From positions 64,001 through 128,000 of the forward strand of contig JBMFRC010000006.1 in the NCBI GenBank assembly GCA_049968235.1: a stretch of 64,000 bases of DNA. Direction: 5' to 3'. The number at the start of each line of letters is the position of its first letter. Positions within the stretch are counted from its first letter, which is position 1. A program made the position numbers and the translations under genes. The stretch is from Candidatus Hydrogenedens sp. (GTDB taxonomy: Bacteria; Hydrogenedentota; Hydrogenedentia; Hydrogenedentales; Hydrogenedentaceae). Below are positions 2,197 to 33,300 of this stretch, piece by piece. The notes beneath the pieces were generated by a model. The model was not told the DNA's origin and did not search any database. It was given only the letters and a program-made list of their open reading frames with translations.

Positions 2197-2677
2197 GTTC
2201 CCTTCTCCTTTGTTGATTTAATATGTTATTTAAAAATTGCCATGCTAATTCAAGATTATTTTTTGCCTCTTCAGTAATCCCTTCACCGATTGTAAAATCA
2301 TAACCTCTGATACCTAATATCCACGATTCTGGAGCAGAACCGAAATATTCATCACAAATAGCAATTACCGATTCTGCATTTACAGAATGTGTCGAAAAGG
2401 TTATATTTTTTGAAGGGAATACTCTTTTTAAGTAAAAAGGTTCATCACCTTCTTTCGATGCATCTACAAATAATACTTTATCATAATTTACCAGTTCAGC
2501 ACCTAATTCAATATTTAACTGGTAATCAGCATCTGTATTAACATTATCATGGTTCATCTGTTTAACACGTTGGACAAATAAAGGTCCCAACGCATCATCA
2601 TGACGCTCCGGATTTCCATATCCGAAGATGAGTATTTTTTCATCCTCTAATAAGTTCATGAACGAGTTTACCTTCAT
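2165..2677 (-). CDS. hoxW: Hydrogenase maturation endopeptidase (HoxW/HycI family)
   Basis: ILIFGYGNPERHDDALG motif typical of the Ni-dependent C-terminal processing protease. Directly downstream of the large subunit. An alternative start at internal Met (2659) with AAGGT RBS is possible. Confidence 0.75.
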   Translation of the reverse strand: MKVNSFMNLLEDEKILIFGYGNPERHDDALGPLFVQRVKQMNHDNVNTDADYQLNIELGAELVNYDKVLFVDASKEGDEPFYLKRVFPSKNITFSTHSVNAESVIAICDEYFGSAPESWILGIRGYDFTIGEGITEEAKNNLELAWQFLNNILNQQRRREHGTKKSYSYY

Positions 2678-4085
2678 GGTTCATTATTTGTATTTGTAAG
2701 GGCATCTGTCCTAATGCATGGGTTGCACAACTCAAACATGGGTCATAAGCACGGATACCAACCTCAATAGTGTTTAATAACCCTTCCGTTATTTCAGATT
2801 TTCCTTGCAAATAATCTTTTGCCAGGACATTTACAACCTGATTCATAGGTTCATTATTATTGGTTGTAGATACGATTAGGTTTGCAAGAACAATCTGGTC
2901 GTTATCATTAATTTCATAATGATGGAACAAAGTTCCACGAGGGGCTTCTATCCACGCGACACCACGTTTCTGTTTTGTTCCCTGAGTAATTAGATTTGTC
3001 CCCTGTAAATCAGGGTCGTTTAACAAATCTTTTATCTTCTCAGCGGAATGCAACATTTCGATTAATCGTGCCCAGTGATATGCCATAGAAGCATTTATAG
3101 GCTTTCCACCTGTTAATGACATTAATTCCTGTCTTTCTTTCTCGGCTAATGGAGTATCAATAAAATCACAATTATTGATACGAGCCAGAGGTCCCACCCG
3201 ATACCATCCTTTTTCTTTTCCTAAGGAACGAATGAACGGGAACTTCATATAACTCCACGGACGAACTTCCTCTGCAATGTAATCAAGATAATCTTCGGGC
3301 TTGACCATATCGAAGATTATCTTTCCATCTGCTGTTTTAGCCCTTAATAAACCATCGTACAGGTCAAGACAACCATCTTTTCGGACAATGCTTAAATGAT
3401 TGGAATCAAAATAACCAAATTTAAGGAAAAAGTCTAATTTCTCTTTTACTATTTTTTTACATAATTCAACGGACTCTACAGACCATTTTATGATGGTATC
3501 AATATCCTTCAGGAAAACATCTCTTTCTTCAATAGATAGGTTTTTATTAATACCACCGGGAATAGCACCTGTCCCATGGACTTTTTTCCCAGCAGTGGCT
3601 TTAATAATTTCCTGACCATATTTTCTCAATAAAACAGCCTTCTTTGCTGTTTCCGGGTCTGCTTTTATCACCCCAATTACATTTCTTTGTTCAACCGGTG
3701 CATCAAATCCGAATAATAAATCGGGAGAACAAAGATAGAAAAAGTGTAGTGCGTGGGACTGTAAGGTTTGTCCATAGTGCATAAGTCTTCTCATCTTTTC
3801 TCCGGTAGGAGTTAATGTTTTTGCTCCTACAATAACATCGGTTGCTTTTGCAGCACAGAGGTGATGACTTACAGGACAAATTCCACATAGTCTTTGAACA
3901 ATGGTTGGGGCTTCCCAATAAAACCGTCCCTGAACAAATCGTTCAAAGCCACGAAACTCTATAATATGGAAACGGGTTTGTTGCACATTCCCTTTCTCAT
4001 CTAAGAGGATAGTAACTTTCCCGTGTCCTTCTACCCGTGTAACGGGGTTTATTACAATTTTTCTTCCTGTTGTTTTTGTACTCAT
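2640..4085 (-). CDS. hoxH: [NiFe] hydrogenase large subunit, group 3d (HoxH)
   Basis: N-terminal RLCGICPVSHH (L1 RxCGxC Ni-binding motif) and C-terminal DPCLSCATH (L2 DPCxxCxxH). 481 aa, matching cyanobacterial HoxH length. Confidence 0.9.
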   Translation of the reverse strand: MSTKTTGRKIVINPVTRVEGHGKVTILLDEKGNVQQTRFHIIEFRGFERFVQGRFYWEAPTIVQRLCGICPVSHHLCAAKATDVIVGAKTLTPTGEKMRRLMHYGQTLQSHALHFFYLCSPDLLFGFDAPVEQRNVIGVIKADPETAKKAVLLRKYGQEIIKATAGKKVHGTGAIPGGINKNLSIEERDVFLKDIDTIIKWSVESVELCKKIVKEKLDFFLKFGYFDSNHLSIVRKDGCLDLYDGLLRAKTADGKIIFDMVKPEDYLDYIAEEVRPWSYMKFPFIRSLGKEKGWYRVGPLARINNCDFIDTPLAEKERQELMSLTGGKPINASMAYHWARLIEMLHSAEKIKDLLNDPDLQGTNLITQGTKQKRGVAWIEAPRGTLFHHYEINDNDQIVLANLIVSTTNNNEPMNQVVNVLAKDYLQGKSEITEGLLNTIEVGIRAYDPCLSCATHALGQMPLQIQIMNHEGKLVHELIRG

Positions 4086-4103
4086 AGATACTGCCTCCTG
4101 AAA

Positions 4104-4652
4104 TTAGTCGTATTTTATAAGTTCATAATCAAGACTTAACGGTTCTCCTTTTAATAAGGCAACCAATGCGTTCCAAATCGTATCTGCGGAAGGTGGGCAA
4201 CCGGGCAGGAAATAATCAATTTTCACTACCTCATGACAGGGATATACCTTGTCTAATAAAACGGGAATATCCGGGTCATTGGGGATAACCCCTGTATTTT
4301 CACTTTTTACAGTGGGACCATTCAGATATGCCTCTTCCAGACATTCCTTTAATGGAACTAAATTCCTCATGGAGGGAACTCCTCCTGTCAAAGCACAGGC
4401 ACCGATGGCAACAAGAATCTTACAATGTTTTCTAAATTCCATCAGTATCTCTGCATTTTCATCATTACTGATACCACCTTCAATAATCCCAATATCTACA
4501 GGTTTTGTAAAATTTTTTATATCATTTATAGGTGACTTGTTAAATTCCACCAATTCAACAAGGTCTAAAATACGCTCATCAATGTCCAAAATAGACATAT
4601 GGCATCCAAAACATCCCGTAAAATGGGCTGTTGCTACAACAGGTTTACTCAT
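4104..4652 (-). CDS. hoxY: [NiFe] hydrogenase small (delta) subunit HoxY
   Basis: 182 aa (same length as Synechocystis HoxY). Proximal-cluster Cys pattern FTGCFGCHMS ... GACALTGG ... LPGCPP. Confidence 0.85.
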   Translation of the reverse strand: MSKPVVATAHFTGCFGCHMSILDIDERILDLVELVEFNKSPINDIKNFTKPVDIGIIEGGISNDENAEILMEFRKHCKILVAIGACALTGGVPSMRNLVPLKECLEEAYLNGPTVKSENTGVIPNDPDIPVLLDKVYPCHEVVKIDYFLPGCPPSADTIWNALVALLKGEPLSLDYELIKYD

Positions 4653-4671
4653 AACTCCATTCCTTTCCTGT

Positions 4672-5388
4672 TTATAATTTCACTTTTTTTGTTTCTATTT
4701 CTGAACCAATCGGCTTCTTGTCGTAAGGTCTCTTTCCAACAGGTGTTAAATACCCTTGCCTCTTCACTACAAGGCACCCCGTAGGACAAACAGACATTGC
4801 TTTATCATCTTTTGTCAAATTGGTATCTTTCAATCCATCGTTGGAGTTTACCGAAATTCGCATGTTAATTCCTCGATTTTCAAAACCAAACACATTTTTC
4901 TTGTCCAGATGTATAGATGCTCTTACACAACGACCACATAAAACACAGCGATTCCTATCTAAATAGACATCGGGATGAGTTGCATCGAGTTCTTTTTGAG
5001 CATATAAATAAGGCATCTGTGGAGTTAATAATCCGAGACGATATGCTAAAGCCTGTAATTCACATTTTCCAGCAACCTCACATGAAGGACAGAAATGATT
5101 CCCTTCCACGAATAACATTTCAATAATGTTCCTGCGGAAACCATTCAATTCTTCCGTATTATTTTCTACAACAATCCCTTCAGCAACAGGATATGTACAG
5201 GAATTAACAGGTCTTCCATTTACTTTTACTGTGCAAACTCGACAATGACCACCCGGAGGAAGGTCTTTAAGATAGCACAATCTCGGAATATATATCCCTG
5301 CATCATCTGCAGCTTGAATTATCGTTTTATCCGGAGCAGATTTTACTTCAACTCCATCAATTGTAAAAGTAACTACATTTGTACTCAT
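4672..5388 (-). CDS. hoxU: Diaphorase subunit HoxU (NuoG-like 2Fe-2S/4Fe-4S ferredoxin)
   Basis: 238 aa. N-terminal 2Fe-2S ferredoxin fold (CRVCTVKVNGRP...C) followed by the HFCPSCEVAGKCELQ and CVLCGRCVRA cluster motifs typical of the NuoG N-terminus and HoxU. Confidence 0.85.
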   Translation of the reverse strand: MSTNVVTFTIDGVEVKSAPDKTIIQAADDAGIYIPRLCYLKDLPPGGHCRVCTVKVNGRPVNSCTYPVAEGIVVENNTEELNGFRRNIIEMLFVEGNHFCPSCEVAGKCELQALAYRLGLLTPQMPYLYAQKELDATHPDVYLDRNRCVLCGRCVRASIHLDKKNVFGFENRGINMRISVNSNDGLKDTNLTKDDKAMSVCPTGCLVVKRQGYLTPVGKRPYDKKPIGSEIETKKVKL

Positions 5389-7160
5389 TATTTTACTCCT
5401 TCCATTGTTCTTCCACTTGCTTCTATACCAATTTTCATAGCTTTTTGCAAATCAAAGGTTAATAATTTACCATCTTCTTCTTTGATTCTTTCTGCATATA
5501 AATCTGCAAAATCATAAATAGTTGTTAATACAGGATTTGCAGATGTTTGCCCTAGTCCACAACGACTCATGGATTTTACCGTTTGCGCTATTCTCCGCAA
5601 TTCAGCAAGGCTTTGGGCAGTGCCTTTACCATCCAGTATCTGTCTAAATTTCTTTTCAAGTAGTGTGGTTCCAGCCCTACATGGGACACACCAACCACAA
5701 GATTCTTCGATAAAAAACTCTATAAACTGATGCATACACTCTAATAAATCTCTATTTTTACCAAAAATCATGATAGAACCACCGGTTGGAAGGTCCTCAA
5801 ATGAAATTCGTCTACCAAAATCCTTGGGGGCTACACACTTTCCAGAAGCACCGCCTACTTGAACTGCCTGTGTATCTTTGGCACCTACCAGTTCTAACAG
5901 ATTCTCTATTGTTATTCCATACTCAACCTCATATACTCCTGGATGCTCACAATCACCGGAAACACTTAACATTTTTGTTCCTGTTGAGTCTTTTGTTCCA
6001 ATCTTCGCAAACCATTCTCCGCCCTTTTCTAATATACGAGCAGCACAACATAGCGTTTCCACGTTATTTACAGATGTGGGTTCGCTTTTATATCCTTTCT
6101 GAACAGGGAACGGTGGTCTATCGCGAGGAGCGCCTCTTTTCCCTTCTGCCGACTCAATAAGTGCAGATTCTTCACCACACACATAAGCACCTGCACCCAA
6201 TTGAATTCGAATATCAAAACTAAAATCTTCTCTACCACAAATATGTTCACCTAATAAACCCAAATGTCTTCTTTTTGCTAAAACCTTTTCAAGATTATCT
6301 AATAAATAAGCATATTCTCCACGAAGATACATTATACCTTCTTTAGCACCGATGGCATACCCTGCAATAGTCATGCCTTCAAAAACCAGGTCAGGATACT
6401 CTGTCAATATAACGCGGTCTTTAAATGTTCCGGGTTCCCCTTCATCTGCATTACATATAAGATAACGAATGGGTGATTTTTGCTTTCTACAAAAATCCCA
6501 CTTCATTGCTGTAGGAAAGCCGGCTCCTCCTCTTCCACGAAGCCTTGACTTATTTATTTCTGCAATAACATCTTCAGGTTTCATATTTAACGCATTTCGG
6601 ATTGCCTGTCCGTTCTCTAATGGGGCACATATAACTTCCCCTTCTTTTTTCAAATTCAACAAAACTCGTGCTTGTGGCAAATCAGAAATATCCTTACCTG
6701 CTTTAATATCACTTATAATTTTAGGAACATCCGCAGGTTTAAGATTTGTAAACGGTATATTGTTTATTAGTGCACCTGGAGCCTGGTCACTTAGACCGAT
6801 ACATGAGGTATGAAGCAAAGTAAACAAGTTATCCTTTGTAGTTTCACCAAAGGATATACCTAATTCCTTTTCAAAGGCTTTCCCTACTTCATCAGCCCCT
6901 TTCATTCTTTCTATAACTGCATTAGCAAGTCTTATTACATTCTTCCCAAGAGGTTTTCTTGGTAAAAAAGAATAAAAACTGACCATATCCCGAACCTGTA
7001 CCATAGGCATGTTCAGGACCTCTGCAACATGTGCGGCCATCTCATCCGAAATATAGCCGAATTCTTTAACAATATCGTGGGCTATATTCATCAGATAACC
7101 GCAGTCATTGCCATATTTATTGGCAATGTTTTTGATTTGTTCTCGGTAATGGTGGGTCAT
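5388..7160 (-). CDS. hoxF: Diaphorase subunit HoxF (NuoE-like N-terminus fused to NuoF-like NAD(P)H/FMN/4Fe-4S domain)
   Basis: GAGAYVCGEESALIESAEGKRG FMN/NADH-binding signature of NuoF. ESCGWCVPCR 4Fe-4S motif. N-terminal thioredoxin-like NuoE-like region. AGGAG RBS upstream. 1-nt overlap with hoxU start. Confidence 0.85.
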   Translation of the reverse strand: MTHHYREQIKNIANKYGNDCGYLMNIAHDIVKEFGYISDEMAAHVAEVLNMPMVQVRDMVSFYSFLPRKPLGKNVIRLANAVIERMKGADEVGKAFEKELGISFGETTKDNLFTLLHTSCIGLSDQAPGALINNIPFTNLKPADVPKIISDIKAGKDISDLPQARVLLNLKKEGEVICAPLENGQAIRNALNMKPEDVIAEINKSRLRGRGGAGFPTAMKWDFCRKQKSPIRYLICNADEGEPGTFKDRVILTEYPDLVFEGMTIAGYAIGAKEGIMYLRGEYAYLLDNLEKVLAKRRHLGLLGEHICGREDFSFDIRIQLGAGAYVCGEESALIESAEGKRGAPRDRPPFPVQKGYKSEPTSVNNVETLCCAARILEKGGEWFAKIGTKDSTGTKMLSVSGDCEHPGVYEVEYGITIENLLELVGAKDTQAVQVGGASGKCVAPKDFGRRISFEDLPTGGSIMIFGKNRDLLECMHQFIEFFIEESCGWCVPCRAGTTLLEKKFRQILDGKGTAQSLAELRRIAQTVKSMSRCGLGQTSANPVLTTIYDFADLYAERIKEEDGKLLTFDLQKAMKIGIEASGRTMEGVK

Positions 7161-11979: not shown

Positions 11980-13140
11980 ATGAGAAGATTTTTCTTAATA
12001 GCTGTAACAATAATCATCACAAGTTTTCTATTCGGCTGTCCTTACAATGGTGTAATCAAAGATGGTGTTGTAATTGTTGACCAGTTACCTGGTGTAACCG
12101 TTTCTTCCGTTTCACCAGACCAGATTGTCTTAAATTCACAAGGGTCAGTTCCTGTAACAACGGGAGACATTATAATTGGTCAATATGGTGATACGGGTTA
12201 CCTTCGTAAGGTTACCGCAGTAGGACAAAAAGGTACAGAGGTTGTTGCTGTAACTGAGCCTGCTTCTTTAGAAGATGCCATTCAAGAAGGTATGTTGATG
12301 ACCAGTGTTAAGTTTGATGTAAATGATTATGTAAAAGCAGGTGTTTTACCCAAAGATGCAAAAGCGACTATAGTAAATTTTAGTGGGAAAGAAATTTATC
12401 GTGGAAATGGCATACGAATCACTGTAGACAAGGGTATATTGGATTGCACTCCACAGGTTGCAATTGTAGCAGACTATAAAGATTTTAAATTGAGGAAATT
12501 TGACTTAACAACAACGGGAACTATTACGCTTACTTTAGACCTTAAAATTGCTCTGGATAATGGAACACCAATCTCTCAGGAATGGGATATTATTCCACCA
12601 ATAATTCATCCTTTTGCGGCAAGTATTGGACCTGTTCCTGTTTACGGTCGCGTAACATTACGTTTCCCATTTGGATTATATGGACAGATGACTGGTGATA
12701 CAAGTGTGAAATCTGGTTTTGATATAAAAGATAATTTCACATTGAAGGCAGTATATGATACAGGCAGTTGGGATGGGTCAAAAGCAGATTTATTTAATTT
12801 CACTTTTGATGGACATCCACTTACATGGAATATTGATATAGGTGGTACTGCTCAAGCATATATTAAAGCCATAGTTGAGTTAACTCTCTATGAATCAGCA
12901 GAAGCAGTAATATTTGCTAAGCCGTATATCACATCGAATATCCATGTATTTCCTTCTCCTGCAAGTATCGAGATTATTGGCGGTGTGGATGCAGGTGCGT
13001 ATGCAGGTTTAAGTGTATTGGGACATAATATAATTGGCAAGAGTTTCTACTGGAATGGTCCCAGTAAGTTATTATATAGAGGTGTTCAGGACTATTCTGA
13101 CCCATTACCTTGGACAAGTGGTTCTATAGATTTGTGGTAA
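11980..13140 (+). CDS. Hypothetical lipoprotein
   Basis: Signal peptide with lipobox LFGC. 386 aa, beta-rich, no recognisable catalytic motif. First gene of a secreted-protein cluster. Confidence 0.55.
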   Translation: MRRFFLIAVTIIITSFLFGCPYNGVIKDGVVIVDQLPGVTVSSVSPDQIVLNSQGSVPVTTGDIIIGQYGDTGYLRKVTAVGQKGTEVVAVTEPASLEDAIQEGMLMTSVKFDVNDYVKAGVLPKDAKATIVNFSGKEIYRGNGIRITVDKGILDCTPQVAIVADYKDFKLRKFDLTTTGTITLTLDLKIALDNGTPISQEWDIIPPIIHPFAASIGPVPVYGRVTLRFPFGLYGQMTGDTSVKSGFDIKDNFTLKAVYDTGSWDGSKADLFNFTFDGHPLTWNIDIGGTAQAYIKAIVELTLYESAEAVIFAKPYITSNIHVFPSPASIEIIGGVDAGAYAGLSVLGHNIIGKSFYWNGPSKLLYRGVQDYSDPLPWTSGSIDLW

Positions 13141-13226: not shown

Positions 13227-14333
13227 ATGCCGTGTAAAAAAATCTTTTGTATATTTATTTTTTCTATCCTATTTTTTCGCTTCTCTTTTTCAGCACAAGG
13301 ACAATATCATTCTTCTGATTATTTGGAACCCCATTTTGTTATTCAATTACCTGAATTACTCCGTTTGGTGCAAATTTATAATTTTGGTTCTTATCATTGC
13401 GACAGTTCATCCGAAGACGGTTACGCACTTGGAAATGGTGATACATCCTGCAAACCTCATAGTTCGGATTATAATCCACAGGATTGGACTATATCTTTTC
13501 AAGAGGTATTACGATTGGCTCAATTTTACAAATCCAGCTCGTATCATATTGATTTATCAGGAGAAGATGGCTTTCAGCCGGGGAATGAAACTGAACCTGT
13601 TCCGGGAACAGAAAAAACTTTTTTAGGGATTCCTTTCGTTTGGATTCCTTCGGGGTCCTTTTACATGGGAACAACAAAAAGTTCAACGGAATTAGTTCAA
13701 TTATATGGCGGAAGTTCCTCTTTATATAGTTCTGAATATCCACAACATTTGGTTGCTATCTCTAACGGTTTTTGGATGAGCCAGACTGAAATTACACAAA
13801 AACAATGGACAGATATAATGGGATACAATCCATCAAATAATATAGGTGCCAATCTCCCTGTAGAAAATTTATCGTGGAATGAATGCCAGAAATTTATTGA
13901 AAAACTTAATAAATTAGGAAATGGGATATTTCGTTTGCCTACTGAAGCCGAATGGGAATATGCGTGTCGTGCAGGTTCTAATTCTGAATTTTGTTTCGGT
14001 GATGATGCAGAACAATTAGACAATTACGGATGGCATTTTTATAATAGTAACTATCAAACACATCCTGTAAAACAAAAATTACCCAATGTATGGGGATTAT
14101 ATGATATGCATGGAAATGTATGGGAATGGTGTCAGGACTGGTATGATACTGAGTATTATCAATACTCCCCTACTCTTGACCCTACTGGACCTGCAACAGG
14201 TAAATATAAAGTTTTACGAGGAGGCACATGTTTACGGACATCTGCCCGTTGTAGGTCTGCTTTTCGTTCATGGAATATACCCGATTTAACTATGGCTGAC
14301 CAAGGATTTAGAATATGCAGAATTTCCGATTAA
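13227..14333 (+). CDS. Secreted FGE/SUMF1-family (formylglycine-generating enzyme-like) protein with N-terminal tandem Cys-containing module
   Basis: ATG 13227 gives signal peptide MPCKKIFCIFIFSILFFRFSFSAQG. The track ORF begins at an upstream TTG inside the terminator hairpin. C-terminal FGE-sulfatase fold (WEWCQDWY, RGGTCL...RCRSAFR, GFRICR). N-terminal ~100 aa consist of two copies of a module also present at the C-terminus of the next gene. Confidence 0.75.
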   Translation: MPCKKIFCIFIFSILFFRFSFSAQGQYHSSDYLEPHFVIQLPELLRLVQIYNFGSYHCDSSSEDGYALGNGDTSCKPHSSDYNPQDWTISFQEVLRLAQFYKSSSYHIDLSGEDGFQPGNETEPVPGTEKTFLGIPFVWIPSGSFYMGTTKSSTELVQLYGGSSSLYSSEYPQHLVAISNGFWMSQTEITQKQWTDIMGYNPSNNIGANLPVENLSWNECQKFIEKLNKLGNGIFRLPTEAEWEYACRAGSNSEFCFGDDAEQLDNYGWHFYNSNYQTHPVKQKLPNVWGLYDMHGNVWEWCQDWYDTEYYQYSPTLDPTGPATGKYKVLRGGTCLRTSARCRSAFRSWNIPDLTMADQGFRICRISD

Positions 14334-17300
14334 TATTCATTTTTCTATCTGGAGTATTTCTTTTTCACACATCCTCTTCTGGACATAATATAGGTATCTC
14401 TTCCTTATATTTTGAACCCAACCATAATCGTTTTGTTTCCGATGTGTTTTATTTTTCCATAGGAAATACTGTTTCTGTAGCATGTTATCAAAATGCTCTT
14501 GTGTTTTTTACATACAATTCTCAAGAATATTACAGAGTCGTTTTTCCTAAAGGTAAGCCTAAAGAAATTACAGGCAATATCCCTCTTCCATCATATTCAA
14601 CATATTTCTATGGGACGAATTCTACTCCTGCAATAGCAGTCCATTATAAAGCAGTTATATATAAAGAAATATTTCCGGGTATCGACTTATATTTATATGA
14701 AAAAGGAGGTAATTTTAAGTTCGATTTTATCGTTCATCCCGATTCAAAACCCGATGCGATTAGTATTAATTTTGAAACTCTCGATATACATAAGCAAAAG
14801 TGGATTTCTAAGAATCCTGAAATTGATGAAAACATTATTCGAATTGTCCACGATAATGTAAAACTAGATTTTTATGCCCCTTGTGCCTTTCAATGGATAA
14901 ATGGAATATCCCACAAAATACCTATTCGTTTATCGTATGACAATGGGGTGAAATTTTATATTCCTGAATCCTCATACAATCCCAATTATCCATTGCTTAT
15001 TGACCCTACTTTGTTGGCGGGCACATATTTGGGAGGGAATAATACCGACAAGATTATTGATGTAAAAACAGATACTGCAGGTAGCATCTATTTAGTTGGT
15101 GAAACAAAATCGCTTAATTTTCCTACCAGTGCTGGTTCTCTTCAAACAAACTATTCTGGTGGAGATATAACAGGAGATATATTTATTGCAAAATTAAATC
15201 CTCTTGCCAATTATCCCCTCTTTTCCACATTTTTGGGTGGTTCCGGGGATGATAGTGCCACAGCAATTAGAATTGATGAGCAAAGAAATATATATATAAC
15301 AGGGATAACTTCTTCTTCGGATTTTCCTACAACGACAAATGCCTATCAAACAACAAAAGCAGGTGGAAGAGATGCTTTTATTACAAAAATCAATTCAGAT
15401 GCTACCGAATTAATCTATAGTTCTTACATAGGAGGCAGTGGTGATGAAAGCATAATGGATTTCACTTTTCTTCCCGATAATAATATTGTTCTAACAGGCT
15501 GGACACAATCATCGGATTTTCCCATAACCGGAAGTTCTTCATTAAATTCTATGTTTAGCGGTGGAGGACTGGACGGATTTTTGTTTAAATGTAATTCATC
15601 ATTTCAACCTATATGGAGTGGTTTTATAGGAACAGCCGGTATAGATGTTTGTAAAACAATAGTAAATTTTGGTGGTGATATTATTTTAAGTGGATACACA
15701 TCCTCAATGAATTTTCCAACTACGCAGGGCGTATTTCAGATTTCTTATGGAGGTGGAAATTACGATTCATTTATAATGAAACTATCAGGTAATAATGCAT
15801 CTACAATATCTTCTTCTTATTTTGGGGGAAGTCTAATTGACCTATGTCAGGCTTTGATTTGTGATAGTTATGGAAACATATACATCACAGGAGAGACATC
15901 TTCCACCAACTTTCCAGTTAGTATCACATCGTTTCAGATTGGATATGGTGGTGGAGAAAGAGATGCTTTTGTTAGTAAACTATCTCCCAATTTAGACCAG
16001 ATAATTTTCAGTACTTATTTAGGAGGAAGTAAGACAGAATCAGGGCTCGGAATCGAATTGGACACATTATCACGAGTATATGTTGTTGGTTATACATATT
16101 CAGGAGATTTCCCTGTAATACCTGGGACATTACAACCTTTATATGGTGGTAATCAGGATGCATTTTTTGCATGCTTGAACCCTAATGGAAATACATTACA
16201 ATATAGTACTTTTTATGGAGGTAAAGGAGAAGAAAAAGCAAGGTCTGTCTATATTTCTAATTCCAATGTAATGTATACAGTAGGAGAAACTGCATCCAAT
16301 CTACTACCTATAACATCAGGGACTTTCCAGACAAGTTTTGGAGGAGGAACACTCGATGGTTTTCTCGCCTGTATTGATGTATCACCTCCTACAAATGAGG
16401 GAGAAGGACAAATAGAAGGGAATATTGAAGGAACCCCAGAAGGTTCGTTAGAAGGTGAAGGTTTAAGGGTATGGACAATAGCACCTGTGGAACGGGTTGT
16501 AACAGAAGGAGCAACAACTACTTTCATTATTGGTGTATCCGGTTATGTGGGAACTGTAAATTATCAATGGCAATTTAAGAGTATCATTGGAGAAGAATAT
16601 ATTCCTATTTTTAACAGCAATAGTCCTATGTTAACGTTGCGTAATATTCAATTTTCATCTTCTGGCTATTATCGATGTAGGGTAAGTGATTCTTTAGGGA
16701 CAGTATTCTCTTCTCCTTTCAAATTAACAGTTCTACAAAGTTTAGAAGGCTCAACAGAGGGGTTATTAGAAGGAAATATAGAAGGTATTATTGAAGGAAG
16801 TGCAGAAGGAACTACAGAAGGTTTATTAGAGGGAGTAGAAGAAGGGATACTAGAAGGCATTTCAGAAGGTTCAAATGAAGGGATTCTTCTTGAAGGTGAG
16901 GGTATAATAGAAGAAGGTCTAATGGAAGGTGAAGGTGCTTATTATCCCTGTGGTTTTGAGATAAATGGAAATGAAACTCATAGTCTCTTAAAAGATAAGG
17001 CTCAAAATCTTTATTATATTTATGTGCCTAATGAAGGGACATTAAACGACCTTATTGTTAATATTTCACTAACCCATGATAATTTACAGCAGATATTAAT
17101 TCAAATTGTATCCCCCTATGGAACAGAAGTTTTTCTACTGATTTATCCAGCACAAGGCGGAACTTCACTACAAAATACAAACTTTGACGATAATGCGGAA
17201 ATAAGTATAAGTGATGGAGTTAGTCCTTTTACAGGTAGTTACAAACCTGTGGGATATCTGGGAGTTTTACGAGGAGAAAATTTACAAGGTACATGGATGT

Positions 17301-17698
17301 TGAGAATTGTGGATTCCGAGACAGGTAGTAGAGGTTATCTTGAATCATGGAAATTGTTATTCAATACATATGCCTGTTCTGAAGAAGGAAATCCTGAAGA
17401 AGGTGAAATTGTAATGTATCATTCAGCAGATACCGATAAGAATCATTCTTTTTCCCTTGTTGAAGTGTTGCGGGTAATACAAATCTTCAATTTTGGTAGT
17501 TATCACTGTGATATTAATGGAGAGGATGGATATGGATTGGGTATAGGAGATCAGAATTGCAATCGCCATAGTTCTGATTATACAGGACCCTATTGGTCCA
17601 TTACTTTCCCCGAACTTTTGCGTTTAATACAGTTATTTAATATAGGTGGGTATGTATCCTGTTCAGATACAGAAGACGGTTTTTGTCCTATTCAATAG
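14315..17698 (+). CDS. Large secreted SBBP beta-propeller repeat protein with Ig-like domain, proprotein-convertase P-domain, EG-repeat linkers and C-terminal tandem module
   Basis: Signal peptide. About 11 SBBP-type repeats (GG.GDD.A.AI..D..GNIYITG.T.S.DFPTT). Ig-like domain (YQWQF...YYRCRVSD). P_proprotein domain (GTWMLRIVDSETGSRGYLESWKLLF). Two xEGx repeat blocks. Last ~95 aa homologous to the N-terminus of the FGE-like protein. Confidence 0.75.
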   Translation: MQNFRLIFIFLSGVFLFHTSSSGHNIGISSLYFEPNHNRFVSDVFYFSIGNTVSVACYQNALVFFTYNSQEYYRVVFPKGKPKEITGNIPLPSYSTYFYGTNSTPAIAVHYKAVIYKEIFPGIDLYLYEKGGNFKFDFIVHPDSKPDAISINFETLDIHKQKWISKNPEIDENIIRIVHDNVKLDFYAPCAFQWINGISHKIPIRLSYDNGVKFYIPESSYNPNYPLLIDPTLLAGTYLGGNNTDKIIDVKTDTAGSIYLVGETKSLNFPTSAGSLQTNYSGGDITGDIFIAKLNPLANYPLFSTFLGGSGDDSATAIRIDEQRNIYITGITSSSDFPTTTNAYQTTKAGGRDAFITKINSDATELIYSSYIGGSGDESIMDFTFLPDNNIVLTGWTQSSDFPITGSSSLNSMFSGGGLDGFLFKCNSSFQPIWSGFIGTAGIDVCKTIVNFGGDIILSGYTSSMNFPTTQGVFQISYGGGNYDSFIMKLSGNNASTISSSYFGGSLIDLCQALICDSYGNIYITGETSSTNFPVSITSFQIGYGGGERDAFVSKLSPNLDQIIFSTYLGGSKTESGLGIELDTLSRVYVVGYTYSGDFPVIPGTLQPLYGGNQDAFFACLNPNGNTLQYSTFYGGKGEEKARSVYISNSNVMYTVGETASNLLPITSGTFQTSFGGGTLDGFLACIDVSPPTNEGEGQIEGNIEGTPEGSLEGEGLRVWTIAPVERVVTEGATTTFIIGVSGYVGTVNYQWQFKSIIGEEYIPIFNSNSPMLTLRNIQFSSSGYYRCRVSDSLGTVFSSPFKLTVLQSLEGSTEGLLEGNIEGIIEGSAEGTTEGLLEGVEEGILEGISEGSNEGILLEGEGIIEEGLMEGEGAYYPCGFEINGNETHSLLKDKAQNLYYIYVPNEGTLNDLIVNISLTHDNLQQILIQIVSPYGTEVFLLIYPAQGGTSLQNTNFDDNAEISISDGVSPFTGSYKPVGYLGVLRGENLQGTWMLRIVDSETGSRGYLESWKLLFNTYACSEEGNPEEGEIVMYHSADTDKNHSFSLVEVLRVIQIFNFGSYHCDINGEDGYGLGIGDQNCNRHSSDYTGPYWSITFPELLRLIQLFNIGGYVSCSDTEDGFCPIQ
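16396..16465 (+). repeat. 12-nt tandem coding repeat (xEGx)n, block 1
   Basis: gaagg-containing 12-mers encoding EGEGQIEGNIEGTPEGSLEGEG. Confidence 0.6.
16741..16940 (+). repeat. 12-nt tandem coding repeat (xEGx)n, block 2 (~16 units)
   Basis: ttagaaggctca acagaggggtta ttagaaggaaat atagaaggtatt ... encoding LEGSTEGLLEGNIEGIIEGSAEGTTEGLLEGVEEGILEGISEGSNEG... Confidence 0.7.
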
Positions 17699-30323: not shown

Positions 30324-33300
30324 ATGGGTAAATACAAGAATATGGTTGCACAATTATTATTCATTCTTTCAATTACTTTAACATCTTATTGCTTTTCACA
30401 GGATAATTTGAAAAATACTTCTTATTTAGAAAATTATTTTTTCCATTCTGAACAGAACAACCATTATTTTGCTTTTTCAAAAAATCAATACTTTGAAATT
30501 ACACCGGGTAGTCTAAAAATATGGATATGGAATCCTATAAAAAATGCCTTTTGTGAACCTGTAGAAATTTGTTTTCTTAACAATGAGAGTAATGCTGTCC
30601 TGGGAAGTGAAAAATCTGATGTAACATACAGTTATTATTCAGGAAATAATCCGGATAATTGGATACATAATAATTTTGCCTATAAGAAATTATGTATTCC
30701 CAACATTTACAAAGGAATTGACCTTGAATTTTACTTTAATAATCATGAGTTAGAGTTTGATTTCATCATTAACTCTCAAACAGATACTAATCAAATCCTT
30801 TGGAGAATCTGTGGGAATAATGTTGAATCACATATTGAAAACAATCAATTAGTTATTACAAATAACGAAGGCTATACATACACTTTTAGCATTCCAGAAA
30901 TATACAAATCCGCAATTAAAAATCCTGCGAGTATTCTTTCACATAATGTTTCTTTTTTAGATTTAGATGGGAATACATACCAAATCTATGTTGATATTCA
31001 TGATAGAAATTCCGAATTGCTTATAGACCCAATACTTACATTATCAACATATATAATTTTTCCGTCATCCAACTGGCCTTCTTCGCTATTTACCAAAATG
31101 TGTTTAGACTACTATAACAATATTGAGGATATTGCTTTAATAGGGGGAGCCATTGAATTTCCCGGTTCTTCTGGAACGGATGTATCAGGATTTTTATGTA
31201 AATTATCCCCACAATTAGGGAAAACACATCATATTGTTTTTATAAATGGAATGGGTGAAGATTATATAAATTTCGTTACTCATTTTATAAATATGATGAA
31301 TGAATTTATCGTTATAGGTGGGAAAACAAATTCTCTTAACTTTCCGACTGTTAACCCAGTCCAACCTTTAAATAGCATTCTGAACAGAAATGGAACATCT
31401 GGTGAATTTGATGGTTTTCTTATGATGTTTGACAAAGACCTAAGGATAACTTTTTCTACTTTTGTCGGTGGGAGTGGATATGACTCTATTGAAGATATTA
31501 ACATTAACACCAATAATTTATTTTTTGCAGGGAATACAAATTCTACTGATTTACCTCTGGTAAATTCTTCATTAAAAACTCAAAAAGGACTACTTGCAGA
31601 TGGTTTCTGGGGTATACTGAAACTTACGGACCCATTGGAGTGTCGATATATAACAAAATTAGGCATAGATGGCATTGAAATCAAGGATATTGAATCATAT
31701 TCAACAATTATATATCTTTGTGGAAATACAAGCGTAGGTTTACCGTATTTTAACCCAATAGTCCCGGAAACACCTGTTCAAGGGCAGGACATCTTTATTC
31801 AAACTTATTCATATTCTGAAGGCACAACAATCCCTGATATTAGTTTATTATCTTCTTTATTCTTAGGCGGTTCGGATAATGATATATTGGAAAAATCTAT
31901 TCTTCTGAATACAAATACCCTTTGTTTGGCAGGGAATACATATTCAAATGATTTGCCAGAACCTGTCATTTCGACAATACCTGAAAAAATACCTGAAAAA
32001 ACTTATCCTTTTCTTATATTAGTTAATCCAACAGTAACTCAAAAATTAATAGGTACTCACTATATCTTTGGTAATGGAACCGATATAATAACTGATATAA
32101 AAACACCTAGTACCGATTCAAGCACATTTTTCATTGTAGGTTATACCAATAGTTATTTTGAAAATTTTAATTGGAATAACACCGAATTTACTTCCAATCC
32201 GTTTGATACCTCGCTCAATAATGGGGCAAATGAAAACTTTGATGCAATGGTATGGAGACTTCAATGGAACAGCATAGAAAATACAATCACGCCTACATGG
32301 GGAACATTTTTAGGGGGAACTTTAAATGATACAGCATTGTCCATAGGTACTGTTGATAGTAATCACATTTGCTTTTCGGGTATAACAAATTCTCCTGATT
32401 TCCCATTACAGGGGTGTCAAACTATAGCACCAGCATATTTACCAAGCCATTATTTATCTGCTTTTAATATATCGGGTAAAGTTATATATGTAAATCCTGA
32501 CAGTTCTGTTGATCCCACTGATGGCAGTTCATGGGAAAAAGGTTACCATACTATTTCAGAAGCCATTAGTTCTGCTAACAACTATGATGAAATATGGATA
32601 AAATCTGGATATTACAATGAAAGGCTTACAATTAATGGATTTTCAAATCTTATCTTGCGAGGTGGTTTTTCAGGTTTAGAAACGAATATAGATGAAATAA
32701 ATCCATGGGAAAATCCAACAAAGATTTCCCCTATACAGGTAAAAGGAACGGGAAACTTAGGAACACCCACCTTAAATATTACATCGTGCATGAATATTGT
32801 ATTAAATGGACTTGTTTTTGAAAGTGGAACTAATATACTTGGTGATGGTGGAGCCATAAATATTTCTAATTCCACTGTTCGTATCCTATGTTCTCAATTT
32901 TACAAAAACAATTCAAATGGGAACGGTGGGGCTATCTATATTAATAATTCGTATGCAAACATCGCAAACTGTGTATTTGTTCAGAATTCTTGTTCAGGAA
33001 ACGGTTCGGGTATTTCTGCTAACGAATCTACAGTTAAAATTATACATTGCACATTTGCTAACAATTTTAATTCCGTTAGCGAAGATGTTAGCACTGTAGA
33101 CATTCAAGGTTCTACATCTATGCTAATGATACTCAACTCTATAATCTGGGCTAATGAGGGAAATACTCATGTTCAGATAAATTATCCTGAAATTATTCCT
33201 CCTGTAAATCTTCTATTCAGCCATTCAATTATCCAAAATTTCAGTTTATTATCTACACCACCATCACCCAATACCGTACTTGATACTAACCCTCTATTTA

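What the first reader, a model, noticed from the sequence alone, without database searches (positions are those of the whole stretch)
13296..17695. Shared ~95-aa tandem Cys-containing module at the N-terminus of an FGE-like protein and the C-terminus of the adjacent SBBP giant protein
The FGE-family protein begins (after its signal peptide) with two consecutive modules. The first is YHSSDYLEPHFVIQLPELLRLVQIYNFGSYHCDSSSEDGYALGNGDTSC. The second is HSSDYNPQDWTISFQEVLRLAQFY..SYHID.SGEDGFQPG. The 1127-aa SBBP protein ends with the same two-part unit in the same order (YHSADTDKNHSFSLVEVLRVIQIFNFGSYHCDINGEDGYGLGIGDQNC then HSSDYTGPYWSITFPELLRLIQLFNIGGYVSCSDTEDGFCP). Conservation is visible even at the DNA level (aattttggttcttatcattgcga vs aattttggtagttatcactgtga). 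I do not recognise this module as a named domain (it is not dockerin, PEP-CTERM or a type-IX C-terminal domain by eye). Its terminal positions in two different secreted enzymes or scaffolds suggest a portable sorting, anchoring or protein-protein docking module, possibly a cohesin/dockerin-like pairing device specific to this lineage.
Basis: seen in the sequence. Interest (0 to 1): 0.7.

Follow-up and report, generated by a model that had tools for sequence, protein, structure and literature searches.

The report
Dockerin-like calcium module of Hydrogenedentota
The shared ~95-residue segment is real: it is an uncatalogued, disulfide-stapled relative of the calcium-binding dockerin/EF-hand motif that bacteria of the candidate phylum Hydrogenedentota attach to the ends of dozens of unrelated secreted proteins per genome, most likely as a common docking handle whose partner is still unknown.

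Summary
The FGE-family protein (13227..14333) has the two-unit module directly after its signal peptide (nt 13302-13589). The SBBP giant (14315..17698) ends with it (nt 17414-17695). The two copies are 50.5% identical over 93 aa (E 2.6e-31).

It is not a local duplication. A family profile finds 3,030 protein clusters, and single Hydrogenedentota MAGs carry 30 or more copies. About 94% of carriers have it at the extreme C-terminus, on unrelated surface-type passengers behind EGxxEG linkers.

Four conserved Cys behave as two disulfides. The second is dropped when the module is not C-terminal, as in the FGE copy.

Best reading: a Ca-stabilised docking module. This is inferred, and no partner was found; the adjacent lipoprotein is not cohesin-like. 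I rate it a new variant of a known kind, of moderate interest.

The parts
13227..14333 (+). FGE-sulfatase family gene (368 aa from ATG 13227; the mechanical ORF starts at TTG 13170). Layout: signal peptide, N-terminal module, FGE domain.
   Evidence: ORF. Pfam PF03781 E 1.6e-48 at residues 156-383 of the 387-aa ORF. Orthologues P0194-P0203 are 358-380 aa and start at the equivalent Met.
13227..13301 (+). Sec-type signal peptide of the FGE protein (MPCKKIFCIFIFSILFFRFSFSAQG). The module starts at the predicted mature N-terminus.
   Evidence: Read from the sequence. The equivalent hydrophobic leaders ending in A-Q/A-x are seen in 10 orthologues. The cleavage site is inferred and was not predicted with a dedicated tool.
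13302..13451 (+). Module unit F1 (50 aa). It has a 13-residue degenerate loop, DYLEPHFVIQLPE (ligand positions 3 and 5 lost), then helix ELLRLVQIYN, hairpin GSYHC...EDGY, and Cys C1 and C2.
   Evidence: (unit-1 HMM E 8.8e-20).
13452..13589 (+). Module unit F2 (46 aa). It has the family-typical 13-residue loop DYNPQDWTISFQE and helix EVLRLAQFYK, and lacks C3 and C4 (the CC-- variant typical of non-C-terminal copies).
   Evidence: (unit-2 HMM E 1.1e-22).
13635..14318 (+). FGE-sulfatase catalytic-type domain, the passenger of the N-terminal module.
   Evidence: Pfam PF03781, residues 156-383 of the ORF from 13170.
14315..17698 (+). SBBP giant gene (1127 aa). Layout: signal peptide, DUF7948, SBBP beta-propeller repeats, EG linker, Ig, EG linker, P-domain, short EG linker, C-terminal module. 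Its start overlaps the FGE stop by 19 nt.
   Evidence: The same 19-nt overlap occurs in L082.
17378..17413 (+). Short Glu/Gly-rich linker (SEEGNPEEGEIV) in front of the C-terminal module.
   Evidence: EGxxEG linkers precede the module across the family (consensus of A3).
17414..17563 (+). Module unit S1 (50 aa). It has a 12-residue EF-hand-type loop DTDKNHSFSLVE that keeps ligand positions 1, 3, 5 and 12, then helix EVLRVIQIFN, hairpin GSYHC...EDGY, and Cys C1 and C2.
   Evidence: unit-1 HMM E 1.2e-22. AF2 helix 19-31 and strands 34-36/44-46.
17564..17695 (+). Module unit S2 (44 aa). It has loop DYTGPYWSITFPE (family D6 replaced by Y), helix ELLRLIQLFN, hairpin GGYVSC...EDGFC with C3 and C4, then a 3-residue tail (PIQ) and the stop codon.
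   Evidence: unit-2 HMM E 3.7e-21. AF2 helix 69-81 and strands 84-86/94-96. Tail length.
11980..13140 (+). Conserved upstream 386-aa lipoprotein (lipobox LFGC). It is syntenic with the FGE-SBBP pair. It was tested as a candidate partner and not supported. It belongs to the conserved gene cluster, not to the module.

Best explanation
The segment is a member of a large, uncurated family of ~95-residue extracytoplasmic modules that is characteristic of Hydrogenedentota.

Architecture. Each module is an internal duplication of a ~47-residue unit. A unit consists of an EF-hand-type Ca2+-binding loop with no entering helix, an amphipathic exiting helix (SELLRVIQFFN), and a short beta-hairpin (GGYHC...TEDGY/F). 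Two such 'F-hands' packed together is the dockerin construction principle. This family adds the hairpins and two disulfides, C1-C2 in unit 1 and C3-C4 in unit 2. The C3-C4 disulfide staples the free C-terminus.

Proposed mechanism. The protein is exported by Sec through its N-terminal signal peptide. The module then folds with Ca2+ and disulfides outside the cytoplasm. Held on a flexible Glu/Gly linker at the chain terminus, it acts as a common docking handle that tethers many different enzymes and adhesin-like proteins to one shared receptor on or around the cell.

In this window, two co-transcribed genes use it at opposite ends: the FGE-like enzyme at its mature N-terminus and the SBBP/P-domain giant at its C-terminus. 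That would bring both to the same place.

What is shown: the existence, boundaries, duplication, EF/dockerin-type loops, predicted fold, Cys covariation, terminal bias, passenger diversity, copy number and taxonomic restriction.

What is inferred: Ca2+ binding, the disulfides, extracellular location, and above all the docking function and the existence of a receptor.

The confidence of 0.5 applies to the docking function. Confidence in the structural and evolutionary identification (a Hydrogenedentota-wide double F-hand, dockerin/EF-hand-related module) is about 0.85-0.9.
For: 1. Real and ancient: E 2.6e-31 between the two copies, with nucleotide identity of only 54%.
2. Family size: 3,030 clusters at E no more than 1e-3 and 1,513 at E no more than 1e-30. 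At least 530 confirmed genomic loci. About 30 of the best 80 loci come from the single MAG JAKQOG01.
3. EF/dockerin relation:
- Unit-1 loop composition is D1 100%, N/D3 95%, D/N5 97%, I8 85%, E12 100%.
- Pfam EF-hand_6 hits 43/60 modules (best 1.2e-5) and Dockerin_1 hits 16/60 (best 2.7e-5).
- 41 of 42 PDB sequence hits are EF-hand proteins, all aligned on the loop plus helix.
- hhalign against dockerins gives E 1.3e-4 over one loop-helix.
5. Handle-like behaviour:
- 181/193 carriers have it within 15 aa of the C-terminus, and 83/90 genomic copies end no more than 5 aa before the stop.
- N-terminal copies sit right after the signal peptide.
- 61 different Pfam families of surface or extracellular type occur among 67 carriers.
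- Within one MAG, modules have a median identity of 76% in all 528 pairs, while only 36/325 passenger pairs are detectably related.
6. Natural swap: the FGE homologue P0290 has a bona fide type I dockerin in the same N-terminal slot.
7. The N-terminal placement is conserved in all 10 FGE orthologues down to 56% identity, and the C-terminal placement is conserved in the SBBP orthologues.
8. Cys covariation: C3 and C4 are co-present or co-absent in 192/193 modules. The variant lacking them is tied to non-C-terminal position (Fisher p 8.6e-14).
Against: - No receptor was identified. The only local candidate, the conserved lipoprotein at 11980..13140, is not cohesin-like.
- The window's own copies have partly degenerate loops. 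F1 has lost ligand positions 3 and 5, and S2 has Y in place of the family's D6. Ca2+ dependence of these two copies in particular is uncertain.
- The 94% C-terminal bias would also fit a secretion or sorting tag.
- Ca2+ binding, disulfide formation and surface location are all untested.
Confidence: 0.5

Rival explanations
1. It is a secretion or sorting tag. On this reading the module is recognised by an outer-membrane translocation or attachment machinery and directs export or covalent or non-covalent surface attachment, as the T9SS C-terminal domain does in Bacteroidota. It would not be a reversible docking handle.
For: - About 94% of copies are at the extreme C-terminus, with a tightly defined 3-4 residue tail after the last Cys.
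- There are dozens of carriers per genome with diverse surface-type passengers.
- The sequence is uniformly conserved across paralogues.
All three features are typical of sorting domains.
Against: - The module works at the N-terminus, directly after a signal peptide, in a conserved way across FGE orthologues.
- It also occurs internally and in tandem arrays of 2-4 copies (P0049/P0050/P0057). C-terminal sorting signals do not tolerate this.
- The predicted fold is loop-helix-hairpin and not the T9SS beta-sandwich.
- No NCBIfam sorting-domain model hits it.
- There is no hydrophobic or basic tail of the PEP-CTERM or LPXTG type.
Confidence: 0.2
2. It is a Ca2+-dependent glycan- or envelope-binding anchor, lectin- or CBM-like. 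On this reading the conserved aromatic and His residues of the two hairpins (GGYHC, EDGY/F, DW) form a carbohydrate- or cell-wall-binding platform that holds proteins on the cell's own envelope polymer or on a substrate.
For: - Highly conserved aromatic and His positions sit outside the Ca loops (Y/H in GGYH, W70 98%, Y/F in EDGY/F).
- Passengers include glycoside hydrolase GH10, beta-helix, PASTA and lectin-like repeats.
- No protein partner was found.
Against: - The module resembles no known CBM, SLH or lectin family by sequence or by fold.
- The nearest relatives, dockerins and EF-hands, are protein-binding modules.
- The natural swap with a true dockerin (P0290) points to protein docking.
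Confidence: 0.15
3. It is a purely structural Ca2+/disulfide stability cap with no binding role. On this reading the module stabilises or protects the termini of secreted proteins, or buffers Ca2+.
For: - Ca loops and disulfides are classical extracellular stabilisers.
- The C3-C4 staple is present specifically when the module forms the free C-terminus.
Against: - A stabiliser would not need 76% median identity across 33 paralogous copies on unrelated passengers.
- It would not need separation from the passenger by long flexible EG linkers.
- It would not occur in tandem, module-only proteins (P0050, P0055, P0058, P0060).
Confidence: 0.08
4. It is a chance similarity or a recent local duplication between two neighbouring genes, with no wider meaning.
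For: The two carriers are adjacent and overlapping genes.
Against: - E 2.6e-31 between the copies, with only 54% nucleotide identity.
- 3,030 clusters elsewhere.
- Orthologues of each gene keep their own copy.
Confidence: 0.01

Closest known systems
Type I dockerin (Pfam PF00404 Dockerin_1) of cellulosomal and non-cellulosomal proteins
   Same: - Internal duplication of a Ca-binding loop plus exiting helix with no entering helix ('F-hand'), from the AF2 secondary structure.
- Terminal position on a flexible linker.
- Many carriers per genome with unrelated passengers, and high similarity among paralogous copies.
- 16/60 members reach Dockerin_1 at E no more than 1 (best 2.7e-5).
- A true dockerin replaces the module in the FGE homologue P0290.
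   Different: - About 95 aa instead of about 60-70 aa.
- Each repeat carries an extra beta-hairpin (GGYHC...EDGY/F) and a disulfide.
- Loop position 12 is Glu (EF-hand type) and not Asp.
- Unit 2 has a fixed 13-residue loop, DYNPQDWxIxLSE.
- hhalign matches only one loop-helix (probability 53%).
- No cohesin partner is known or was found.
- The window's own copies hit no dockerin model.
Canonical EF-hand pair (Pfam EF-hand_1/5/6/7; calmodulin, hippocalcin)
   Same: - The unit-1 loop is a textbook 12-residue EF loop with Glu at position 12.
- 43/60 members hit EF-hand_6.
- 41/42 PDB sequence hits are EF-hand proteins.
- Some carriers (P0030, P0044, P0045) also have ordinary EF-hands upstream.
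   Different: - No entering helix.
- Extracytoplasmic and disulfide-bonded.
- Each loop-helix is followed by a conserved hairpin.
- It is used as a terminal appendage on large secreted proteins, not as a Ca sensor.
C-terminal sorting domains (T9SS CTD, PEP-CTERM, LPXTG and similar)
   Same: Strong C-terminal bias, dozens of carriers per genome, lineage restriction and surface-type passengers.
   Different: - No NCBIfam sorting model hits it.
- The predicted fold is not a beta-sandwich.
- There is no hydrophobic TM plus basic tail.
- It occurs N-terminally, internally and in tandem.

Membership tests
Dockerin type I (PF00404) | Sequence match to the family model above the curated threshold | tested here: not met
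   The window's two modules give no Dockerin_1 hit at E no more than 1 (28 member 1). Across the family, 16/60 members hit at E no more than 1, best 2.7e-5. This is a minority and mostly sub-threshold.
Dockerin type I (PF00404) | Two tandem F-hand motifs (Ca loop plus exiting helix, no entering helix) packed as one small domain | tested here: met
Dockerin type I (PF00404) | Whole-domain profile-profile homology to dockerins | tested here: inconclusive
   hhalign of A2 (60 modules) against 3 dockerins gives probability 53% and E 1.3e-4 over 23 columns, which is one loop-helix only. The dockerin profile was very shallow.
Dockerin type I (PF00404) | Ca2+-dependent binding to a cohesin module | not testable with these tools
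   No cohesin was identified. The adjacent conserved lipoprotein is not cohesin-like. No multimer prediction or annotated Hydrogenedentota proteome was available.
EF-hand (PF00036/PF13405/PF13202/PF13499) | 12-residue loop D-x-[DN]-x-[DN]-G-x-I-x-x-x-E | tested here: met
   Family unit 1 has D1 100%, N/D3 95%, D/N5 97%, G6 33%, I8 85% and E12 100%. Window S1 is DTDKNHSFSLVE, which keeps positions 1, 3, 5 and 12. Window F1 is degenerate. 43/60 members hit EF-hand_6.
EF-hand (PF00036/PF13405/PF13202/PF13499) | Helix-loop-helix, with an entering helix before the loop | tested here: not met
   In the AF2 model there is no helix before either loop; residues 1-18 and 47-68 are non-helical.
T9SS C-terminal sorting domain and other NCBIfam CTERM sorting signals | Match to a sorting-domain model; strictly C-terminal; beta-sandwich or TM-plus-basic tail | tested here: not met
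   No NCBIfam hit. There are N-terminal, internal and tandem copies. The predicted fold is helical plus hairpin. The tail is a hydrophilic 3-4 residues.
Hydrogenedentota ~95-aa double F-hand/hairpin module (uncurated family defined here) | Two units with [loop]-SELLRxIQFFN-xGGYHC-x(3-6)-EDG[YF], and the H-S-x-D start of each unit | tested here: met
   The family profile A1 scores the window copies at E 7.2e-47 (SBBP) and 5.3e-43 (FGE). Both align end to end.

The most novel reading that the evidence does not exclude
Hydrogenedentota possess a phylum-wide surface-assembly system that does not use a recognisable cohesin. Dozens of enzymes and adhesin-like proteins per cell are displayed through this disulfide-stapled double F-hand module. 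They would bind either a so far unrecognised, non-cohesin receptor or one another. Membrane-anchored, module-only proteins such as P0050, with three tandem modules, could then act as the scaffold. That would be an independent, Gram-negative-type analogue of the cellulosome principle in an uncultured phylum.
Probability: 0.25. Interest if true: 0.8.

Novelty: new variant of a known kind. Interest (0 to 1): 0.55.

Why it matters
- Hydrogenedentota are globally distributed but, to my knowledge, uncultured. The genomics papers I checked do not mention this module.
- A single ~95-aa handle carried by 30 or more secreted proteins per genome marks the set of proteins these bacteria place at their surface: glycoside hydrolases, peptidases, FGE-like enzymes, LRR, Ig and beta-helix adhesins. 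It therefore gives a direct way to enumerate that set.
- A curated HMM would annotate thousands of currently 'hypothetical' proteins.
- It would also help explain why their genes so often sit at contig ends. Many database hits are fragments cut at contig edges.
- If the partner is found, the pair would be a new, compact, Ca- and disulfide-stabilised affinity system of possible use in protein display.

Tried and rejected
1. Third copy in the window: none found with a 4-unit HMM, the family profile or separate unit profiles.
2. Known-family assignment of the window copies: Pfam and NCBIfam give nothing for them.
4. Sorting-signal reading: weakened by the N-terminal, internal and tandem copies and by the hydrophilic tail.
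5. CaaX-like C-terminal Cys motif: considered because many copies end C-P-G-x. It is not favoured, because the tail length varies from 1 to 15 residues and C4 covaries with C3.
6. Recent duplication or gene conversion: rejected by 54% nucleotide identity.
7. AFDB50 fold search: the library was unavailable.
8. The first genome scan, with the 60-sequence alignment, failed because no stretch was conserved enough. It was repeated with 10 canonical members, which biases the 80 returned loci towards the canonical subtype.
9. The recurrent weak NCBIfam FolE hits (16/60 members, E about 7e-4) were treated as spurious and not followed up.
10. Literature searches for any description of this domain in Hydrogenedentota found nothing.
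Full report
**Observation**

The region holds two overlapping, co-oriented genes.

- The first is an FGE-sulfatase family protein (Pfam PF03781, E 1.6e-48). Its real start is the ATG at 13227, giving 368 aa. This is the same length and N-terminus as ten orthologues.
- The second is a 1127-aa protein with DUF7948, SBBP beta-propeller repeats, an Ig domain and a proprotein-convertase P-domain.
- After a 25-residue signal peptide, the FGE protein begins with two ~47-aa units (nt 13302-13451 and 13452-13589).
- The giant protein ends with the same two units (nt 17414-17563 and 17564-17695), followed by the stop codon.
- The two tandem modules are 50.5% identical over 93 aa (E 2.6e-31), and all four units align with each other.
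The modules as a whole are only 54% identical at the DNA level, and third positions are not preserved.

These are therefore old paralogues held together by selection on the protein. No further copy exists in the window.

**Distribution**

The module is neither private to these genes nor rare.

- A word-indexed search with the SBBP module found 48 proteins. Those that carry a name are from Candidatus Hydrogenedens or Hydrogenedentes. Most are short fragments, and one that I checked sits at the start of its contig.
- An exhaustive profile search of 1.84 billion cluster representatives found 3,030 proteins at E no more than 1e-3 and 1,513 at E no more than 1e-30.
- A scan of one genome per GTDB species found at least 594 stretches, of which 530 were confirmed. 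About 30 of the best 80 come from one Hydrogenedentota MAG (JAKQOG01), and about 20 each from two others.
- All carriers that have a source name are Hydrogenedentota. The exception is two MAGs labelled 'uncultured Nitrospirales', a label I consider doubtful but did not check.

**Where it sits and what it is attached to**

- Among 193 fetched carriers, 181 have the module within 15 residues of the C-terminus. Seven have it near the N-terminus and five internally. Twenty-one carry more than one copy, up to four in P0049 and three in tandem in P0050.
- In genomic DNA, 83 of 90 copies end no more than 5 residues before a stop codon. The chain usually stops 3-4 residues after the last Cys, with a hydrophilic tail.
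- Sixty-seven full-length carriers contain 61 different Pfam families. Nearly all of these are extracellular or surface types: InlB B-repeats, bacterial Ig-like, LRR, PASTA, CHRD, beta-helix, PMP repeats, HYR, P-domain, peptidase M14 and GH10.
- The module is usually separated from the passenger by EGxxEG linkers.
- Seventy-nine of 109 full-length carriers have an N-terminal hydrophobic leader by a crude hydropathy test.
- Within one MAG, the 33 module copies align in all 528 pairs with a median identity of 76%. Only 36 of 325 passenger pairs show any similarity.
- Ten of the 80 loci contain two carrier genes within 8 kb, like the window.

**What it is**

Pfam and NCBIfam give nothing for the window's copies, but the family consensus is revealing.

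- Unit 1 reads H-S-A-D-Q-N-G-D-x-x-I-S-L-S-E-L-L-R-V-I-Q-F-F-N. This is a canonical 12-residue EF-hand loop (D1 100%, N/D3 95%, D/N5 97%, I8 85%, E12 100%) running into a helix.
- Unit 2 has a fixed 13-residue variant, D-Y-N-P-Q-D-W-x-I-x-L-S-E.
- Of 60 isolated modules, 43 hit Pfam EF-hand_6, 39 EF-hand_1, 36 EF-hand_5, 31 EF-hand_7 and 16 Dockerin_1.
- A profile search of PDB sequences returns 42 weak hits, 41 of which are EF-hand proteins aligned on that loop and helix.
- AlphaFold2 with the family alignment gives a confident model (pLDDT 93.9, pTM 0.85). It has only two helices, each directly after a loop, and each followed by a short beta-hairpin.
- This is a pair of 'F-hands' without entering helices, which is how dockerins are built.
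- Foldseek finds nothing significant. Its only hits with TM 0.33-0.46 are again dockerins.
- hhalign against three dockerins matches one loop-helix only (probability 53%, E 1.3e-4).

The module is therefore related to the EF-hand/dockerin motif but is not a member of Dockerin_1 as defined. It is about 30 residues longer, has a hairpin and a disulfide per repeat, uses Glu at loop position 12, and has no close solved counterpart.

**Cysteines**

Four Cys positions are conserved at 99%, 97%, 85% and 85%.

| Pattern (C1 C2 C3 C4) | Modules |
|---|---|
| CCCC | 161 |
| CC-- | 25 |
| C-CC | 3 |
| C--- | 2 |
| CCC- | 1 |
| ---- | 1 |

- C3 and C4 are present or absent together in 192 of 193 modules. 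This is the pattern expected of a disulfide.
- Copies lacking C3 and C4 are strongly enriched among non-C-terminal modules: 20 of 30, against 8 of 162 C-terminal ones (Fisher p 8.6e-14).
- The window obeys the rule. The C-terminal SBBP copy has all four Cys, and the N-terminal FGE copy has only C1 and C2.
- I read C3-C4 as a staple for the free chain end. This is inference.

**State of the window's copies**

- SBBP unit 1 (DTDKNHSFSLVE) keeps ligand positions 1, 3, 5 and 12.
- SBBP unit 2 has Y in place of the family's D6.
- FGE unit 1 has a 13-residue loop that has lost positions 3 and 5.
- FGE unit 2 is family-typical.
- In the more distant syntenic relative L085, the SBBP orthologue has a canonical unit 1 (ADQDTDGRISLTELLRVIQ). 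The window's lineage is therefore derived.

**Conservation of the arrangement**

- The gene order is: unannotated ~386-aa lipoprotein, module-FGE, SBBP giant with module, Peptidase_S11, PAS histidine kinase. It is kept in relatives whose FGE protein is only 56% identical.
- All ten FGE orthologues have the module directly after the signal peptide.
- All SBBP orthologues have it at the C-terminus.
- A more distant FGE homologue, P0290, has a bona fide type I dockerin in the same N-terminal slot, confirmed against solved dockerins.

This natural replacement is the most direct hint that the module does a dockerin's job.

**Mechanism**

The best-supported reading is a Ca2+- and disulfide-stabilised docking handle.

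- Steps shown: portability, terminal placement on linkers, uniform conservation across paralogues, EF/dockerin-type loops, and the paired F-hand model.
- Steps inferred: Ca2+ binding, disulfides, extracellular location, and the existence of a common receptor.

I looked for a receptor in the obvious place, the conserved lipoprotein upstream. It has only 11 homologues, one of which is fused to an FGE domain. Its moderate-confidence model resembles outer-membrane beta-barrels and not cohesins. It is more likely a functional partner of the FGE enzyme than a module receptor.

Rivals:
- A secretion or sorting tag fits the C-terminal bias. It does not fit the conserved N-terminal, internal and tandem copies, nor the absence of any sorting-type tail or model hit.
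- A Ca-dependent glycan or envelope anchor is not excluded. It is favoured by the conserved aromatics and disfavoured by the absence of any lectin or CBM similarity and by the dockerin swap.
- A mere stability cap is hard to reconcile with linkers, module-only proteins and 76% identity across paralogues.

**Novelty and score**

- No Pfam-A (2025) or NCBIfam (release 20) model covers the unit.
- The Hydrogenedentota genomics papers I could search do not mention it.
- It is a new, heavily expanded, phylum-restricted variant of a known kind of module (EF-hand/dockerin F-hand pair), and not a categorically new thing.
- The interest is moderate. It defines the probable surface proteome of an uncultured phylum and implies an unidentified receptor. 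However, the function is inferred, and dockerin-like modules outside cellulosomes are already known in many lineages (from my own knowledge of the field; I did not read a source for this).

Noticed in passing
window 11980-13140 (+): A conserved 386-aa lipoprotein (lipobox LFGC) of unknown family sits immediately upstream of the FGE-SBBP pair and is syntenic in distant relatives. It has only 11 homologues in 5.8 billion proteins. One of them (P0323) is fused to an FGE-sulfatase domain, which suggests it works with the FGE enzyme. The AF2 model is all-beta with very long strands, and its nearest folds are outer-membrane barrels (Z no more than 7.8).
   Followed up: partly
window 14315-14333 (+): The SBBP start codon lies 19 nt inside the end of the FGE gene. 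The same 19-nt overlap is present in the relative L082 (11089 against 11107), which suggests translational coupling of the two module-bearing proteins.
   Followed up: partly
window 16394-16462 and 16742-16939 (+): There are long Glu/Gly-rich periodic linkers (NEGEGQIEGNIEGTPEGSLEGEG, and a 66-aa LEGSTEGLLEGNIEG... stretch) between the domains of the SBBP giant. The same EGxxEG periodic linkers precede the module in most family members and may contribute to assembly breaks at these genes.
   Followed up: no
P0050 (356 aa), also P0055, P0058, P0060: These are module-only proteins. P0050 has an N-terminal hydrophobic anchor or leader followed by three tandem modules of a divergent subtype, in which the unit-1 helix is not LLRVIQ. 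The others have a signal peptide plus two modules. They could be adaptors or scaffolds if modules bind one another.
   Followed up: no
loci L003, L010, L012 and others (contigs CAYYRW01, CAYXPO01, CAZLII01): MAGs titled 'uncultured Nitrospirales bacterium' carry about 20 canonical copies each, as many as bona fide Hydrogenedentota MAGs. Either the taxonomic label is wrong or the module is not confined to one phylum.
   Followed up: no
alignment A2 members: 16 of 60 isolated modules give weak NCBIfam hits to GTP cyclohydrolase I FolE (TIGR00063, best E 7e-4), and 7 hit Pfam GTP_cyclohydroI. This is probably a chance local resemblance, but it recurs and I have no explanation for it.
   Followed up: no
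window 2640-7160 (-): Four ORFs of 481, 182, 238 and 590 aa have the same lengths and order as the HoxH/NiFeSe hydrogenase, Oxidored_q6, Fer2/NADH-G and Complex1_51K genes of the syntenic relative L082. This suggests a bidirectional NAD-linked [NiFe] hydrogenase cluster. It was not scanned directly here.
   Followed up: no
window 30324-35957 (+): A very large ORF (1877 aa) lies elsewhere in the window. It has no copy of the module and was not otherwise examined.
   Followed up: no
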